From NCBI RefSeq assembly GCF_009914755.1, contig NC_060948.1: a stretch of 64,000 nucleotides of DNA. One strand, 5' to 3'. The notes below the pieces were generated by a model. It saw only the letters and a list, made by a program, of their open reading frames with translations. It did no database searches and had not been told where the DNA came from. The DNA comes from the human T2T-CHM13v2.0 reference genome, Homo sapiens. Positions 1-6,316 of this stretch are shown piece by piece. Every line of letters starts with the position of its first letter. The stretch's first letter is position 1. The translations under genes and the position numbers were made by a program.

Positions 1-177
1 AATTGGGCCGCACCATGGATGCCTTGCTTCCATCTCCTGGCGCACAGCATGGTTCCTGGATATGTTTTGTTTAAACCGCACGTTCTTTTGAAATTTGACC
101 TGGTTGTCAACATTTAAAACTTGGGAGATTCCACCACAAATTCTGCATTTTAAAGTTCTCTTAAAACATGAGGAGCC

Positions 178-546
<369 letters not shown>

Positions 547-1617
547 TTACATGCAAAGCACCCAGCCTGCAAGCAGACAGTTTCCCTCCCTGGCGTGGGC
601 TGAGCCCCCGAAAACACTGGAGTTTCTGACCTCTGTCATGGGGAATATGGGGCTTTCTTCAACAAATTCCTCTTTACGATGGTGACTTATGCCTGACCCA
701 CCCTTCTCTTGGGGTGTCCTTCTTTGAGGGGCTGAGGCAGGTGGGGCCTGCTGGCTCCAGCATGTTCCTTACCTCCCATGAAGTACCATGTACATGGTGC
801 AGTCTAGGCTATGAAGTCCACTAGGCTACCCCACCATTACCCTTGGTTCCCATGACGGGGGTGCCAGAGTGGCCCAGGGGCAGCAGGGCTATGGGAGACA
901 GAGGGAGGGCCTGCCACAGCCTCCTCTCCTGTGACCACCTGGCGGCTCAGCTGACAGGAGAGTCACAGCTGCTCAGGTCACCCTGGTCACTGGAGCATGC
1001 TGGGTGGGAGAACCACTCCCTGCAAGAGCGAAAAGCTGAGAACACTGCCAACCGTGCTGGCACCCCTGAGCCAGCCCGCCGCTGCAGAGAGCCCTCTACA
1101 AAGAGCCCGCTCTGTGCTGATGGAGGCTGGAACCTGGGGAAATCTGGCTCAGGGCTGCTTGCTGGGGCTCAGGGTGGGGTGGGGCTGTGGCCCTCCACAA
1201 CCCTGCCCTGGGATGACCGTGGGTGAAACAGAACCCTGACTTGCAGGCCCCAGTCTGAGGTGGAGGGAGGGGGCCCAGACCAACCTCACCCGAATGTTAG
1301 GATAACAGGAATTTCCTGCCAGGATGAGGCTGGCACTGGTTTCGGTTCTGTCCTGAGTGGAGGGGGAGGTCAGTAGTGGACTCTCCAATCAGTGGGGCCT
1401 TCACGGGCTCTGGTCGGAAGTTCCCACATGCCCCCATCAGGAGGTCTGACTCTGGCCACCTCCTGCCTCGCCTGAGCCTGTCCTGCTCATTGCCCTCCCC
1501 TTCTAAGCCTGTCCGAACACCCCTACCTTGGGGACCCCTCCTGTGTCTTCCTTCTCCAGGAAGCCCCTCTGATCCTCCCCCTCAGAGCTCTAGCCCTCCT
1601 CCAAGCTCCATCCCTGC

Positions 1618-4600
1618 CCTATCCCAGCCTTCCTATACAGCCCCACAAGTCAAAAAATCGTGACTAAAATAAAATATCTCCCTGACAAAAAACTAAAAAA
1701 AAAAGACACTGAAGTCCCAATTAAGACTAAAAAAATTAAAAAAAAATAAAGTATCCTTTTTAAAAGTGGCCACTGTAAAGCCTCCAAAACCCATTCCATT
1801 AACTTAAAAAACAAAAAAAACCTATATACGTAAATCAGTGGCCACTACCAAAACACAAACTAAAAACTTTACACTTACTAACAAAAAAATTTAAAAAAAA
1901 AAATTGAGCCTTCATTTTCGCCTTAAAATTCTCCTATGTTTATAATTCAAAAAAAAAAAAAAAATCCGACAAATGACACATACTAACCAACTTAAAAGCA
2001 TTAATGCCGTAATTCAACCCATGGAGAGTCTCCAACCTGAGTTGCCCTCTCCGGCCATAATCCCCCAAAATTGGCCTTTAATTATAATTAATCTAAAAGA
2101 TTACATTTTTACCATTCTTCTGACAAAACAAAATTTAAAAACATTTACTTTCACTATACCAGCCATAAATAATAAAAAACCAGCCACCAGGTTTCAGTAA
2201 AAAGTGTTACCTCAAAAAATACTTAATAGTTCAACTATTTGTCAAACTTTTTTGTAACTCAAACTCTTCAACCAGTTAAACACAAGTTTTCAAACTGTTA
2301 TTCATTATATTAATACTATTTTGTATACTACAAAAACAAAAAACAAATTAACTATTACACATTTCTACAAGCAAAGGTTACCAACATAAGACTGACAATA
2401 ATATCTAATAAAATTCAAACCTCTAATCCTTTCCATTACTTAAAAATGTAAGTTAAAAAACCACAAAAAATAAAAATTAAACATTAAAAACATTAAATAA
2501 CTTTCAAAAATTACTAAAAATTATTAAACTCAGCCAACTCTAGACATCCCTACTTATGCCATGTCAAATTTGTTCTCTATCTTAAAAAAAATCCAAAATT
2601 AAATAATGAACATTAACTCCAAAGACAACTAAAAAAATTAATTTAAAAAAGTTCAGTCAACCCAAATAAATAAAATGAATCACTTAGCCCCACTCCAACT
2701 TTTAATTTTTACTACTACACATTCTCCAACAGACATTATTGTTCAAAATACAAATCTTATGAAGTGGTCCTTCCTTCCTTACAGCACAATTAAGACTTTT
2801 ACATTGTACTTAAATCAAATGACTACATTAATTAGACAAAACTACAAATAATAAAATTATATAAAAATAACCCAAATAAAATCATTGTTCCTTTAAACAA
2901 AAAACAAATTAAACAAGACTTTATCAATTCTGGTATACAACAAATTGGTCTTACTAATTTTATAAAAAATTATTGACAATCATTACCCAAAAACAAAAAT
3001 CTTCCAGTTTTTAAAATTGACTACTTAAATTTTACCTAAAATTACCAAACATAAACCTTTAAAAAATACTCTAATGGTGTTTACTAATAGTTCCAACAAT
3101 AAAAAAATGACTTACACCAGACCAAGAAAACAAGTCATTAAAACTCAATGTCACTTAACTCAAAAAACAAAATTGGCTACTGTCATTACAATATTACAAA
3201 ATTTTAATCAGCCTATTAACATTGTATCAAATTCTACATATATAACACAAACTACAAAAAAGTTAAAACAGCCCTAATCAAATATCGAATATAATCAGTT
3301 AAACCAACTATTTAATTTGTTACAACAAACAGTAAAAAAAAAAATTTCCCATTTTATATTACTCATATTCAAGCACACACTAATTTACCAAGGCCTTTAA
3401 CTAAAAAAAACAAACTAATTTACTAGTATCATCTACATTCATAAAAACACAAAAACTTCATGCCTTAACTCATATAAATACAACAAAACTAAAAAATAAA
3501 TTTAATATCACATAAAAACAAAAAATATTGTACAACATTACACCCAGTGTCAAATTCTACACCTGCCCACTCAAAAAACAAAAGTTAATCCCAAAAGTCT
3601 ATGTCCTAATACGTTATGACAAATAAATATCACACATGTACCTTCATTTGAAAAATTGTCATTTGTCCATACAACAGTTAATACTTATTCACATTTTATA
3701 TAAACAACCTACCAAACAAAAGTACTTCCCATATTAAAAAAACATTTATTATCTTGTTTTACTGTCATAAAGTTCCAAAAAATTAAATAATAGGACAAAA
3801 TAGTGTAATAAAACATTTCAAAAATTCTTAAATCAATAAAAAATTACACATACACAAAAATCCCCTATAATTCCCAAACACAAACCATAATTTAAAAAAC
3901 TAACACTCAAAACTCAATTAAACAATAAAAAGCAAAACACTCCCCCAATACAACTTAATCTAACACTCTATACTTTAAACTTTTTTAACATATATAAAAA
4001 TCAGACCACTACTTCTACAGAACAACATTTTACTAATAAAAAACCCACATAAAAAAACTAATTTAATTTAAAAAACATAAAAAATAAAAACATTAAAAAA
4101 AGCTTTACTTGTGTTTCACCAAAAAATCAACTTCCTGTTTAAATACCCACTAAACATTTCAAATTCTACAATAAACCCATTAAAAATACAAAAAGCCACC
4201 TCCACAAAAATAAAAACACCACAATCAAGCATCATTAACTCACCAAATAAAATAACAATATCAAAAAAACAGTCGCCATCCACCAAAAAAACAAAGCCAC
4301 CAACTTAAACACAATTAAAAAAACTAACACCGTTAACTAAAAAAAGCCAAAAAAACACAAAAGTGACACAAACTCCAAAAAAATACTGTTTATGACTTTA
4401 ATAATTATATCAACAATAGTAAGTATCCCCATGTCTACAAAAACAACAACTAATTATACTAAGCCTATGTACCTTTCTCACCCTTAATTCAGTCACATAA
4501 ATAAATAATCCTATTAAAACATATATTAATAATACATGGGTACCAGGCCCCACAAATAATCGTTGCCCTGCCCAACCTAAAAATAATAATAATATAAATA

Positions 4601-5085
4601 TTTCTATTAAATATTATTATCCTATTTGCCTAAAAAAGACACCAAAATATTTAATACCTACAACCCAAAATTAGTAAAAGTACCTACTATCAATACCAAT
4701 AAATTTACTTATTACATAGTAAGTAAAATGTCACTCAAACCACAAATAATTTACAAAACTCTTCTTTTCAAAAATCATTAAAATCTAAACCTAAAAAAAT
4801 CCTTGCCCCTAAAAAATCAAAAGATCCAAAAGTCTTAGTTTTAAAAAAATATATAACTAATACTACAATAATACTACAAAACAATAAATTCAAAACTATT
4901 ATAAACTAGGCCCCTCAAAACCAATTATATTGTAATTCTACGGGTCAAACTCACTCATGTTCACAGGCCCCATCCATCTGGCCCATTAATCCAGCCTATA
5001 ATAATAATTTAACTAAAAAACTAAACCAAATTTATAAAAAGTTAAAATCACCCTATCCATAAAAATAAAATTAAAAAAAAAGTTT
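1618..5085 (+). mobile_element. HERV-K(HML-2) internal fragment (end of pro, whole pol, 5' env; type 2 pol-env junction), extremely G-to-A hypermutated and non-coding
   Basis: Collinear with recalled HML-2 sequence once A is read as G. ORF 1973-2200 gives [45 protein letters not shown] (RT). YIDD codons read TAT ATT AAT ACT at 2306-2317. Integrase HHCC region ~3457-3550. env ATG reads ATA at 4171. Only 3 G in 3841-4080. Confidence 0.95.
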
Positions 5086-5090
5086 TTTTT

Positions 5091-5748
5091 TACTATGCGT
5101 AAATGTATGCATAGGCCAGATTTATACTTCTCTCCACCCAAACATTTCAGTGTAGTAAAAAGTAATAGAACAACATTGCCGCCAACATAACTCGCCTCCA
5201 GCCACAGGGCGGTTTTCTCCTATCTCAAAATAAAACGAATGTACAATCGGGTTTTACACGGAGACACTCCATTCCCAGAGGCATACAAGAGATGGAGGCC
5301 TTCCTCTTACTAATCCTCCTCAATACAGACCCTTTATGGGTGTCGGACTGGAAGACGGTCAGGTCTTTCCTTTCCCATAAGGCCATATCTCAGACCATCT
5401 CAGTGGGGAAAAACCTTGGACAATACCTAGACTTTCTTGGGCAGAGGTCCCTGAAGCTTTCCGCAGTGTATTGTGCCCCTGGTTAATCAAAAATGAAAAA
5501 TGACAATAATTTTTACCAAAAATACTGCCTGTAAACATATTATTAACAAGACACATTCTACACAGCCCTAGATCCCTTAAACCTTAATTCTATACAACAC
5601 GTGTTTCTGTAAACACAGGGTTGAAACTAAAGTTACAAATGAACATCTCAAAACAATTATTCAGGGTACAAATAAAAATGAGGTTTCTTATGTCTTCCTT
5701 TTCTACATAGACACAGTAACAGTCTGATCTCTCTTTCTTTTCCCTACA
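5091..5748 (-). mobile_element. LTR5 (LTR5A/B-type) U3 fragment, opposite orientation to the adjacent pol/env
   Basis: Minus strand begins TGTAGGGAAAAGAAAGAGAGATCAGACTGTTACTGTGTCTATGTAGAAAAGGAAGACATAAG at 5748 and contains the GGGAAAGGAAAGACCTGACCGTC core; truncated after ~660 bp. Confidence 0.92.
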
Positions 5749-6316
5749 GACACCAGGCTTCCCTTCCCCTGGAGCAGCCAGACCTTCTGTGGTATCTTGA
5801 GCAAGCCCCTGGTCCTGTCTGGGCCTCTGCAGACTCAAGGTCTGGTGCCTGACTTACACCCTGTTATCATATCCTGCCATCTGGCCCCATATGGAGTCCT
5901 ACAGGGGACTCTCAGACCCAGGCGTGACCACTGGCTCAGGCCCCTCTCAGAGGTCTGGCGGCCCAGCATCTGCCCACGGGCCTCCTCTCCCCCTCCTTTT
6001 CTCCAGGCTCCTGTCTCTGCCACAGTTCCCTGGAGGTGACCTCTAGCCCGGCCCAGGGGCTCACACACTCCTGAGGGAGGCAGGGCCAGACTCAGGCAAG
6101 GCCTTGGAGGACACATCCCAGTGGGCAGGGCCCAGCACTCTTGGGGTGGAACTACAGGGAGGAGAGGCAGGGCAATTGAGGCTTGAGGTGCCTGGCCTCA
6201 CCCAATGTGGCCAGCCTGCTCCTTTTCCTCAGTCTCAGATGGAGCAGAGGATGGAGGTGGGGAAGAGAGGCCAGGGAGACAGTAGGGCTTGGTTATGGAT
6301 GATGGGGGTCCTTGTG

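What the first reader, a model, noticed from the sequence alone, without database searches (positions are those of the whole stretch)
1618..5085. HERV-K(HML-2) pol/env with near-saturating G-to-A hypermutation and a broad target context
Seen: G is almost absent (3 G in 3841-4080) while the flanks are GC-rich, so the loss is confined to the ERV. Against recalled HML-2 sequence, Trp codons become TAA (1924, 2198), YIDD becomes YINT (2306-2317) and the env ATG becomes ATA (4171). GG, GA and GC are all hit (TGTGCTGCAGAAAC -> TATACTACAAAAAC, ~2324) while GT often survives (AAAGTGTTAC, CCAGTT, AAGTTTT). Established: APOBEC3 deaminates minus-strand cDNA; A3G favours GG, A3F/B/H favour GA. Inference: this is far beyond an A3G-only pattern and implies a promiscuous or saturating ancestral deaminase, or several enzymes acting on one germline-bound molecule.
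Basis: partly seen in the sequence, partly recalled or inferred. Interest (0 to 1): 0.8.

Follow-up and report, generated by a model that had tools for sequence, protein, structure and literature searches.

The report
Extremely G-to-A edited HERV-K fragment
This is an ancient retrovirus fragment in which a host antiviral enzyme turned about seven in ten G bases into A before it entered the germline, and its odd inverted end suggests it is a failed copying product rather than a normal provirus.

Summary
Window 1619-5084 is HERV-K(HML-2) pol plus the first ~900 nt of env. G is 5.7% of bases, against 24-28% in the flanks.

Against 17 natural HML-2 copies compared one by one, G>A is 409-454, C>T 38-82 and A>G 15-32. 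About 72% of reference G read A. By the next base the loss is GA 92-94%, GG 74-79%, GC 65-72%, GT 40-49%, and C two bases downstream protects strongly. So the pattern is GA-first and near saturation, not an APOBEC3G (GG) footprint.

The editing stops exactly at the insert's edges. It is shared with a second Y copy and a chr15 copy, so it predates those duplications. The three copies fit the catalogued loci Yq11.23a/b and 15q25.2. The catalogue's main text has no word on hypermutation.

New here:
- Window 5091-5748 is an inverted LTR5 U3 piece (LTR positions ~1-700). It also carries G>A on the window + strand (31-34% against 7-10% C>T), so the LTR's own plus strand was edited.
- An empty paralogous site shows no target duplication and 28 nt lost.

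Best reading: an aberrant, heavily deaminated cDNA inserted non-canonically. That last step is inferred.

The parts
1619..5084 (+). HERV-K(HML-2) internal fragment: the last codons of pro, then pol, then the first ~900 nt of env. About 72% of G read A. It has many stop codons and about 200 nt of small deletions compared with relatives.
Evidence: Positions 1619-1621 (CTA) are shared with the flank.
3447..3521 (+). Remnant of the integrase zinc-binding domain
   Evidence: Pfam Integrase_Zn, E = 5.6e-5, translation with X at every stop.
4171..4173 (+). Position of the env/rec start codon, which reads ATA here
   Evidence: the 6p21.1 copy has ATG at the aligned place.
4246..4392 (+). Remnant of the Rec / env signal-peptide region
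   Evidence: Pfam HERV-K_REC, E = 1.8e-9.
4492..4960 (+). Remnant of the env surface subunit, spread over two reading frames
   Evidence: Pfam HERV-K_env_2, E = 6.8e-17 and 3.3e-15.
5085..5090 (.). Junction filler: a run of T with no counterpart in env or in the LTR. Window 5063-5084 aligns about equally well to env and to the antisense LTR.
5091..5748 (-). LTR5 U3 piece, LTR positions about 700 down to 1, inverted relative to pol-env. The canonical LTR start abuts the right flank at 5748. About one third of window-strand G read A, which is C>T in the LTR's own sense.
   Evidence: LTR hits flanking the 6p21.1 and Xq28 proviruses lie in the opposite orientation to their internal parts; aligns antisense to both 997-nt LTRs of 6p21.1, with window 5748 at LTR position 1; substitution counts.
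1319..1618 (.). Left host flank, unedited
   Evidence: against the empty paralog, the nearest 300 nt have G>A 2, A>G 7, C>T 4, T>C 5.
5749..6048 (.). Right host flank, unedited
   Evidence: the nearest 300 nt have G>A 5, A>G 1, C>T 4, T>C 6.

Best explanation
Shown:
- An HML-2 (older, LTR5B/5A-like) reverse-transcription product was deaminated on one physical strand, the window minus strand, before it entered the germline.
- The footprint is that of TC-preferring APOBEC3 activity driven close to saturation. On the plus strand the order is GA > GG ~ GC > GT, with C at +2 protective.
- About 380-405 net edits lie in 3.45 kb of pol-env, and about 30 more in the LTR piece.
- The event happened once. 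The edited insert was later copied, with its flanks, from chr15 (15q25.2) to the Y and duplicated there.

Inferred:
- The inserted molecule was not a normal linear provirus but a chimeric cDNA.
- The first ~700 nt of plus-strand strong-stop DNA, which begins at U3 position 1, became joined to minus-strand DNA of env-to-pol. This joining was probably a template switch during a failed plus-strand transfer.
- That molecule lacks the polypurine tract, so the minus strand stayed single-stranded unusually long. This would explain the extreme editing.
- It also lacks normal ends. It was therefore inserted non-canonically: possibly integrase at the U3 end and end-joining at the other end, with a 28-nt loss of target DNA and no target duplication.
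For: 1. Strand bias and extent. G>A is 409-454, against C>T 38-82, A>G 15-32 and T>C 37-75, in each of 17 pairwise comparisons. Between 71% and 73% of reference G read A.
2. Context. GA 0.92-0.94, GG 0.74-0.79, GC 0.65-0.72, GT 0.40-0.49 (13 references). GNC is about 0.42 and GNA about 0.86. By trinucleotide: GAA, GAG, GAT and GGA 93-98%; GCC 24-26%; GTC 5-20%.
3. Controls. The 3q21.2 copy gives GG 0.18-0.21 with the rest 0.01-0.06. Four of the six pairs of ordinary copies are close to symmetric; the exception is in the Against line.
4. Confinement. Flanks compared with an empty paralog show no bias. Left: G>A 26/438 against C>T 20/467. Right: 16/278 against 24/285.
5. One old event. The Y paralog differs at 1 of 4200 columns. 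The chr15 copy differs at 70 substitutions in 4184 columns with no bias (G>A 13, A>G 8, C>T 15, T>C 9, transversions 25).
6. Inverted LTR. Window 5063-5748 aligns antisense to both LTRs of the 6p21.1 provirus, at 85.3% and 84.6%, with window 5748 at LTR position 1. Sense alignments fail.
7. Same-strand editing in the LTR. In window 5095-5748 at non-CpG sites, G>A is 40-45 of 126-133 and C>T is 11-15 of 148-157, p = 6e-8 to 3e-6, in all 7 references. Against the two 6p21.1 LTRs, over 5063-5748, the counts are 51/146 and 54/147 against 17/170 and 19/172. The same sites are protected, +1 T and +2 C.
8. Abrupt drop in editing at the junction. The last env bin is 0.72-0.74. The next LTR bins are 5 or 6 of 13 and 3 to 5 of 15 to 18.
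9. Insertion site. The empty paralog at chr15:75.72 Mb has 28 nt where the insert sits. There is no target duplication, and there is a 3-nt overlap at the left junction.
10. Background from a review, passages seen (PMC7760323). [quoted passage not shown] Uracil repair can cleave edited cDNA. Editing gradients rise 5' of polypurine tracts. A mild rise is seen here, from 0.60-0.67 at the 5' end to 0.83-0.88 around 3869-4368.
Against: - The chimeric-cDNA step is inferred from a single fossil. A normal provirus in the opposite orientation, followed by one genomic inversion and one deletion, gives the same map if its 5' LTR plus strand had been edited.
- The empty site is a paralog only 91-92% identical to the flanks. 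The 28-nt difference could therefore be an unrelated indel, or part of a later deletion.
- Editing in the LTR piece shows no clear gradient.
- The LTR piece's order of preference (GA ~ GC > GG > GT) differs somewhat from pol-env and rests on about 40 edits.
- The dependence within GG could reflect local differences in accessibility rather than sequential editing, so a share of APOBEC3G is not excluded.
- Reference copies are themselves diverged (about 6% at other sites), so some 'G>A' calls are differences in the reference.
- Two of the six control pairs, the same pair of copies compared both ways, are not symmetric. The 3p12.3 copy against the 6p21.1 copy gives G>A 178 against A>G 131.
- I could not read Lee 2008 or Anwar 2013, nor the supplement of PMC4866542. 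I did not look up Armitage 2008, which I recall only. Any of these might already list this locus.
Confidence: 0.55

Rival explanations
1. An ordinary hypermutated provirus that was rearranged later in the genome. A complete, heavily edited HML-2 provirus integrated normally in the opposite orientation, with its 5' LTR at window 5748. An inversion between LTR position ~700 and env, and a deletion reaching 20-odd nt into the left flank, then produced today's map.
For: The right edge is an exact LTR terminus, as integrase would leave it. Proviruses do get rearranged. Two genomic events suffice to produce the map. All three copies share the structure, so it is old in any case.
Against: - It needs about one third of the non-CpG C in the 5' LTR's plus strand to have been deaminated, while the same LTR shows no excess on the minus strand. 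From established knowledge of reverse transcription (recalled, not tested here), plus-strand strong-stop DNA is paired almost throughout a normal cycle.
- It offers no reason for the extreme editing level.
- The missing 28 nt and the 3-nt overlap need a further coincidence.
Confidence: 0.27
2. Several enzymes acted on one molecule. The breadth of context comes from joint editing by a GG-type enzyme (APOBEC3G) and GA-type enzymes (APOBEC3F/D/H-like), not from one activity at saturation. This rival concerns the enzyme only and is compatible with either structural history.
For: GG sites are lost at 74-79%. They are still lost at about 50% when the second G is kept, which is above GT. Human ERVs as a whole show both GG and GA footprints (PMC6955324, passages).
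Against: - In the sub-saturated LTR piece, GG is only 5-11 of 37-44, which is close to background. GA is 13-17 of 29-31 and GC 15-19 of 31-35.
- Loss of the first G depends on loss of the second even within +2 strata.
- GA exceeds GG everywhere.
Confidence: 0.3
3. Editing of the chromosome in place. The strand-coordinated change arose after insertion, as an APOBEC mutation cluster on exposed single-stranded genomic DNA.
For: The edited strand is continuous across the inverted junction, as it would be for a chromosomal strand.
Against: - The change stops within a few bases of the insert's two edges, and the nearest 300 nt of each flank show no bias.
- Seven in ten G over 3.45 kb is far denser than any chromosomal cluster I know of (recalled).
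- The level drops abruptly at the internal junction.
Confidence: 0.03
4. No editing at all: the element belongs to an A-rich lineage, or lost G through ordinary decay.
For: None found.
Against: - The closest non-paralogous relatives are ordinary HML-2 copies at 74-79% BLAST identity, and 66-71% of all mismatches to them are G>A.
- Four of six ordinary control pairs are close to symmetric.
- CpG decay was excluded from the context counts.
Confidence: 0.01

Closest known systems
HML-2 proviruses at 3q21.2 (HERV-KI) and 21q21.1 (HERV-K60), reported as hypermutated by APOBEC3G (Lee, Malim and Bieniasz 2008, not held here; cited in PMC4379556, passage seen)
   Same: Same virus group and the same kind of event: strand-specific G-to-A editing fixed in the germline.
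   Different: - Those two carry a GG footprint at modest density. The 3q21.2 copy measured here loses 18-21% of GG and 1-6% of the other contexts.
- This element is GA-first and loses about 72% of all G.
- Those are full proviruses of the young LTR5Hs group (PMC4379556). This is a fragment of the older group with an inverted LTR piece.
'Ultra-edited' ERVs of Knisbacher and Levanon 2015 (PMC4866542, section 'Ultra-Edited Elements' read in full)
   Same: ERV copies in which G>A makes up most of the mismatches to an unedited relative. In that survey, primate motifs are GA or GG.
   Different: - Their maximum was 392 G>A in a 4304-bp alignment (zebra finch), and up to 234 editing sites in primates and rodents.
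- This element has 409-454 G>A in 3182-3451 aligned columns.
- Their supplementary lists could not be read, so I cannot say whether this locus is among their 44 human elements.
GA-context hypermutation of HIV-1 and of HERV-K reporter virus by APOBEC3F, 3B and 3D (PMC2531183, passages)
   Same: GA is the preferred context, and editing falls on the minus-strand cDNA.
   Different: - That paper found no clear GA or GT trace in 20 full-length genomic HERV-K copies, only GG.
- Here GA is nearly saturated, and GC followed by A or T is hit almost as hard, which is not part of the textbook footprints.
[quoted passage not shown]
   Same: It offers a cause for an aberrant product that involves plus-strand strong-stop DNA and abnormal ends.
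   Different: That work is on HIV-1 in cell culture. No germline fossil of such a product is mentioned in the passages I saw. The link to this locus is my inference.

Membership tests
HERV-K(HML-2) provirus | Colinear nucleotide homology of the internal region to HML-2 proviruses | tested here: met
   17 copies align over window 1619 (or 1821) to 5071-5103.
HERV-K(HML-2) provirus | HERV-K-specific protein domains | tested here: met
   HERV-K_env_2, HERV-K_REC and Integrase_Zn, with X at stops. No RT domain was detected.
HERV-K(HML-2) provirus | LTR5-type LTRs at both ends, in the same orientation as the genes | tested here: not met
   there is only one LTR piece (about 700 of 997 nt), and it is inverted. 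There is no 5' LTR, gag or most of pro.
Canonical integrase-mediated integration | Short target-site duplication flanking the insert | tested here: not met
   the empty paralog shows 28 nt missing and no duplication. Caveat: it is a paralog at 91-92% identity, not an ortholog.
APOBEC3-type cDNA hypermutation | G>A in large excess over C>T on the coding strand | tested here: met
   rate ratio 8.3-12.6, p down to 6e-144.
APOBEC3-type cDNA hypermutation | Confined to the reverse-transcribed element | tested here: met
APOBEC3-type cDNA hypermutation | Dependence on the neighbouring base | tested here: met
   +1 A > G ~ C > T; +2 A ~ G > T > C.
APOBEC3-type cDNA hypermutation | Editing rises 5' to 3' towards the polypurine tract | tested here: inconclusive
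   0.60-0.67 at the 5' end and 0.83-0.88 around 3869-4368, but 0.67-0.83 after that. Near saturation the gradient flattens.
APOBEC3G footprint | GG preferred over GA, GC and GT | tested here: not met
   GA 0.92-0.94 against GG 0.74-0.79. GG is near background in the LTR piece.
APOBEC3F/D/H/B-like (TC-type) footprint | GA preferred, with GAA among the top trinucleotides | tested here: met
   GAA 62/63 to 70/72. Which enzyme acted cannot be told from the sequence.
Catalogued loci Yq11.23a/b and 15q25.2 (Subramanian 2011) | Same chromosomes, copy number and size | tested here: met
   two hits on the Y and one at chr15:82.0 Mb. Table 1 lists two Y entries of 3.2 kb and one 15q25.2 entry of 3.3 kb, in hg19 coordinates. 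The match is inferred, because no coordinate lift-over was possible.

The most novel reading that the evidence does not exclude
This locus is a germline fossil of a failed reverse transcription. It would be a chimeric strand made of the first ~700 nt of plus-strand strong-stop DNA joined to minus-strand env-pol DNA. That strand was left single-stranded because it lacks the polypurine tract, was deaminated almost to saturation by a TC-preferring APOBEC3 in an ape or catarrhine ancestor, and was then inserted at a break with loss of 28 nt of target. If so, it records in one molecule both ways in which APOBEC3 harms a retrovirus, by mutation and by derailing plus-strand transfer and integration. 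It also gives an enzyme spectrum at saturation from roughly 20-30 million years ago.
Probability: 0.45. Interest if true: 0.7.

Novelty: new variant of a known kind. Interest (0 to 1): 0.55.

Why it matters
- APOBEC3 editing of endogenous retroviruses is well known, and for HML-2 the published footprint is APOBEC3G's. This element shows that an older HML-2 lineage also met GA-type editing.
- Its load (409-454 G>A in about 3.4 kb) is above the maxima given in a vertebrate-wide survey (PMC4866542).
- Because editing is near saturation, the G that survive give a clean picture of what the ancient enzyme would not touch: G followed by T, and any G with C two bases on.
- The inverted LTR piece edited on its own plus strand, together with the insertion site lacking a duplication, would be rare natural evidence of how edited cDNA goes astray.
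- A practical point: none of the 20 longest masked stretches named in the hub's list overlaps 1619-5748. Catalogues and trees built from such copies (long branches, mis-assigned subgroups) should flag them.

Tried and rejected
- My first pairwise alignments used the wrong strand for nine loci and a plain scoring scheme. They gave spurious extensions past 5085 and inflated transversions. I replaced them with oriented alignments under a symmetric transition-tolerant matrix.
- Reading window 5085-5750 as a continuation of env: rejected.
- Reading it as a 3' LTR in the normal orientation: rejected, because the sense alignments fail.
- A nested antisense LTR integration in the source provirus: rejected, because the env junction lies at LTR position ~700 and not at an LTR terminus.
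- A polyadenylated retrocopy made by LINE-1: no poly(A) at the right edge and no target duplication.
- Literature. Lee 2008 and Anwar 2013 are not held. The supplement of PMC4866542 could not be read.
- Searches for a printed report of hypermutation at this locus found none. The HML-2 catalogue's main text contains no 'hypermut', 'APOBEC', 'inverted' or 'inversion'.
All counts are pairwise against natural copies, so each count includes that reference's own changes.
Full report
**What is there.** Window 1618-5085 has only 198 G in 3468 bases (5.7%), with A at 46.5%.

A search of the window's own genome with window 1600-5800 found three things:
- an identical copy 1.6 Mb away on the same chromosome;
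- a 97% copy at chr15:82.03 Mb;
- well-known HML-2 proviral places at 74-79% identity, the best being chr6:42.72 Mb, chr3:75.61 Mb and the chr8 and chr4 clusters.

Only 39 of 1636 first-look candidates were scored. Nothing lay between the paralogs and the ordinary copies.

With stops read as X, Pfam finds HERV-K_env_2, HERV-K_REC and Integrase_Zn in the expected order. So the element is HML-2, running from the last codons of pro through pol into the first ~900 nt of env.

**Is it editing?** I compared the window with 17 natural copies one at a time. Each was oriented and aligned under a matrix that treats both kinds of transition alike.

| Change | Range over the 17 copies |
|---|---|
| G>A | 409-454 |
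| A>G | 15-32 |
| C>T | 38-82 |
| T>C | 37-75 |
| Transversions | 76-118 |
| Aligned columns | 3182-3451 |

- Against the closest copy (6p21.1, L004), G>A is 437 of 629 reference G and C>T is 38 of 689 reference C (p = 6e-144).
- In seven references G>A makes up 66-71% of all mismatches, and the net excess is 379-405 sites.
- The method behaves as it should. The 3q21.2 copy is described in print as APOBEC3G-hypermutated (PMC4379556, passage). Here it loses 18-21% of GG and 1-6% of the other contexts.
- Four of the six ordinary control pairs are close to symmetric. The exception is 3p12.3 against 6p21.1, compared both ways, with G>A 178 against A>G 131.

**Context.** These are the fractions of reference G that read A, by the following base.

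| Context | Fraction lost |
|---|---|
| GA | 0.92-0.94 |
| GG | 0.74-0.79 |
| GC | 0.65-0.72 |
| GT | 0.40-0.49 |
| C>T control at non-CpG sites | 0.05-0.11 |
| A at +2 | about 0.86 |
| G at +2 | about 0.80 |
| T at +2 | about 0.72 |
| C at +2 | about 0.42 |

By trinucleotide:
- GAA, GAG, GAT and GGA 93-98%;
- GCA about 90%;
- GCT 80-94%;
- GGG 82-86%;
- GGT 68-77%;
- GTG 58-69%;
- GTA 44-56%;
- GGC 41-45%;
- GTT 30-40%;
- GCC 24-26%;
- GTC 5-20%.

In GG pairs the first G is lost in 83-86% of cases when the second is also lost, and in 46-57% when the second is kept. The dependence survives stratifying by the +2 base, with Mantel-Haenszel odds ratios of 3.4-7.4.

This is what a TC-preferring enzyme would give once a downstream G has become A. 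Shared local accessibility could contribute as well. Of the 198 surviving G, 93 are followed by T and 43 by C.

The footprint is therefore GA-first and close to saturation. It is not APOBEC3G's.

Published traces in 20 full-length genomic HERV-K copies were GG only. That paper reports 'no clear-cut evidence' for GA or GT (PMC2531183, passages).

**One old event, confined to the insert.**
- The second Y copy differs at 1 of 4200 columns.
- The chr15 copy differs by 70 substitutions in 4184 columns with no bias.
- A paralog at chr15:75.72 Mb matches both flanks at 91-92% and lacks the whole insert.
- Against that paralog the flanks show no G>A excess. On the left, G>A is 26/438 against C>T 20/467. 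On the right, 16/278 against 24/285. The nearest 300 nt on each side have only 2 and 5 G>A.

Editing therefore happened on the retroviral DNA before insertion, and the later duplications merely copied it.

Window 5091-5748 matches LTR5 elements all over the genome. The matches that flank the 6p21.1 and Xq28 proviruses lie in the opposite orientation to those proviruses' internal parts.

I fetched both ends of the 6p21.1 provirus. Its LTRs are 997 and 996 nt long, and the 3' LTR follows a purine run.
- The window aligns only antisense to these LTRs, at 85.3% and 84.6%.
- Window 5748 sits at LTR position 1, and window 5063-5094 at about position 700.
- Env homology ends at 5084, which is 1077 nt short of that provirus's 3' LTR.
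- A run of six T (5085-5090) has no counterpart in either parent.
- About 20 nt before that run align equally well to env and to the antisense LTR.

**The inverted piece is edited on the same window strand.** At non-CpG sites in window 5095-5748, G>A is 40-45 of 126-133 and C>T is 11-15 of 148-157 in each of seven LTR references (p = 6e-8 to 3e-6). Against the two 6p21.1 LTRs, over 5063-5748, the figures are 51/146 and 54/147 against 17/170 and 19/172.

In the LTR's own sense these are C>T changes, so the deaminated strand was the LTR's plus strand.
- The protected contexts are the same as in pol-env: +1 T at 2-4 of 25-31, and +2 C at 2-4 of 29-38.
- GA (13-17 of 29-31) and GC (15-19 of 31-35) are hit hardest. 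GG (5-11 of 37-44) is near background.
- The level drops abruptly at the junction, from 0.72-0.74 in the last env bin to 5-6 of 13 and 3-5 of 15-18 in the next two LTR bins.

**How it most likely came about.**

Shown: one physical strand, the window minus strand, was deaminated across a junction that joins sense U3 (positions 1 to ~700) to antisense env-to-pol.

From established knowledge of reverse transcription (recalled): the only plus-sense DNA that begins at U3 position 1 is plus-strand strong-stop DNA, and it is normally paired throughout.

Inferred:
- Plus-strand strong-stop synthesis or transfer went wrong, and the strand became joined to minus-strand DNA of env-pol by a template switch.
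- That product lacks the polypurine tract, so second-strand synthesis was delayed and the minus strand was exposed for unusually long.
- Having no normal ends, it entered the chromosome non-canonically.

The insertion site fits this. The empty paralog has 28 nt where the insert lies. There is no target duplication. The left junction shares 3 nt (CTA, window 1619-1621) between flank and virus. The right junction is the exact LTR terminus.

A review states that APOBEC3 proteins cause defects in plus-strand transfer and integration, and that uracil repair can cleave edited cDNA (PMC7760323, passages).

The mild 5'-to-3' rise in editing (0.60-0.67 up to 0.83-0.88) is in the usual direction, but it is blunted by saturation.

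**Main rival.** A normal provirus in the opposite orientation could have been inverted and deleted later in the genome, which gives the same map. It requires heavy plus-strand editing of a 5' LTR that shows no minus-strand editing. It leaves the extreme load and the 28-nt loss as coincidences. I give it about 0.27, against about 0.55 for the cDNA-stage chimera.

Editing of the chromosome in place is contradicted by the sharp edges.

Whether one enzyme at saturation or a mixture did the editing cannot be settled from one molecule.

**What is known.** The three copies fit the catalogue entries 15q25.2, Yq11.23a and Yq11.23b of Subramanian et al. 2011. Table 1 records 15q25.2 as shared down to orangutan and the Y copies down to chimpanzee.

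A later paper groups Yq11.23 with the LTR5B proviruses that arose by duplication (PMC4379556, passage). The catalogue dates LTR5B proviruses at ~27.9 ± 12.0 My on average, with the subgroup active ~19-25 My ago (PMC3228705, passages).

The catalogue's main text has no occurrence of 'hypermut', 'APOBEC', 'inverted' or 'inversion'. Four full-text searches found no report of hypermutation at these loci.

I could not read Lee 2008 or Anwar 2013, nor the supplement of Knisbacher and Levanon 2015. I did not look up Armitage 2008. Prior mention therefore cannot be excluded.

That survey's stated maxima are 392 G>A in 4304 bp (zebra finch) and up to 234 sites in primates and rodents (PMC4866542, section read). 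This element exceeds both.

**Verdict.** The phenomenon is a known kind. This instance is an extreme and structurally unusual variant, and its most interesting feature is the inverted LTR piece edited on its plus strand.

Noticed in passing
L002 = chrY:24607654-24611853 against window 1600-5800: The two Y copies lie on the same strand in this assembly. The hg19-based catalogue lists Yq11.23a on the minus strand and Yq11.23b on the plus strand. This may reflect a structural difference between the two Y chromosomes in this amplicon region.
   Followed up: no
L005 (chr3:75.61 Mb copy) against L004 (chr6:42.72 Mb copy): The 3p12.3 copy shows a small one-way excess of G>A over A>G (178 against 131). 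GA sites are hit most, at 63/356 = 0.18 against 0.09-0.11 for the other contexts. This may be a mild GA-type editing trace.
   Followed up: no
chr6:28557587-28562102 (hits): In this HML-2 copy, a ~640-nt LTR5-like piece sits between two colinear pol segments, in the same sense as pol. It looks like an LTR inserted inside the provirus.
   Followed up: no
chr4:14269-17477, chr15:14325-17533, chr21:11261-14469, chr22:12831-16039: Near-identical HML-2 pol-env matches lie 11-17 kb from the start of four chromosomes. This suggests a shared subterminal duplication that carries a provirus.
   Followed up: no
window 1619-5748: None of the longest masked stretches named in the hub's repeat list overlaps this 4.1-kb insert. 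Heavy editing may let it escape routine repeat masking, at least as long stretches.
   Followed up: no
window 175-470: An Alu-like element with an A-rich tail lies upstream of the insert, read from the sequence. It is unrelated to the finding.
   Followed up: no
window 1619-5084 against L004-L020: Besides substitutions, the edited copy has lost about 200 nt in many small deletions, the largest being 11-22 nt at 2458, 3920, 4072, 4808 and 4905. Several of them fall in A-rich runs created by the editing.
   Followed up: partly
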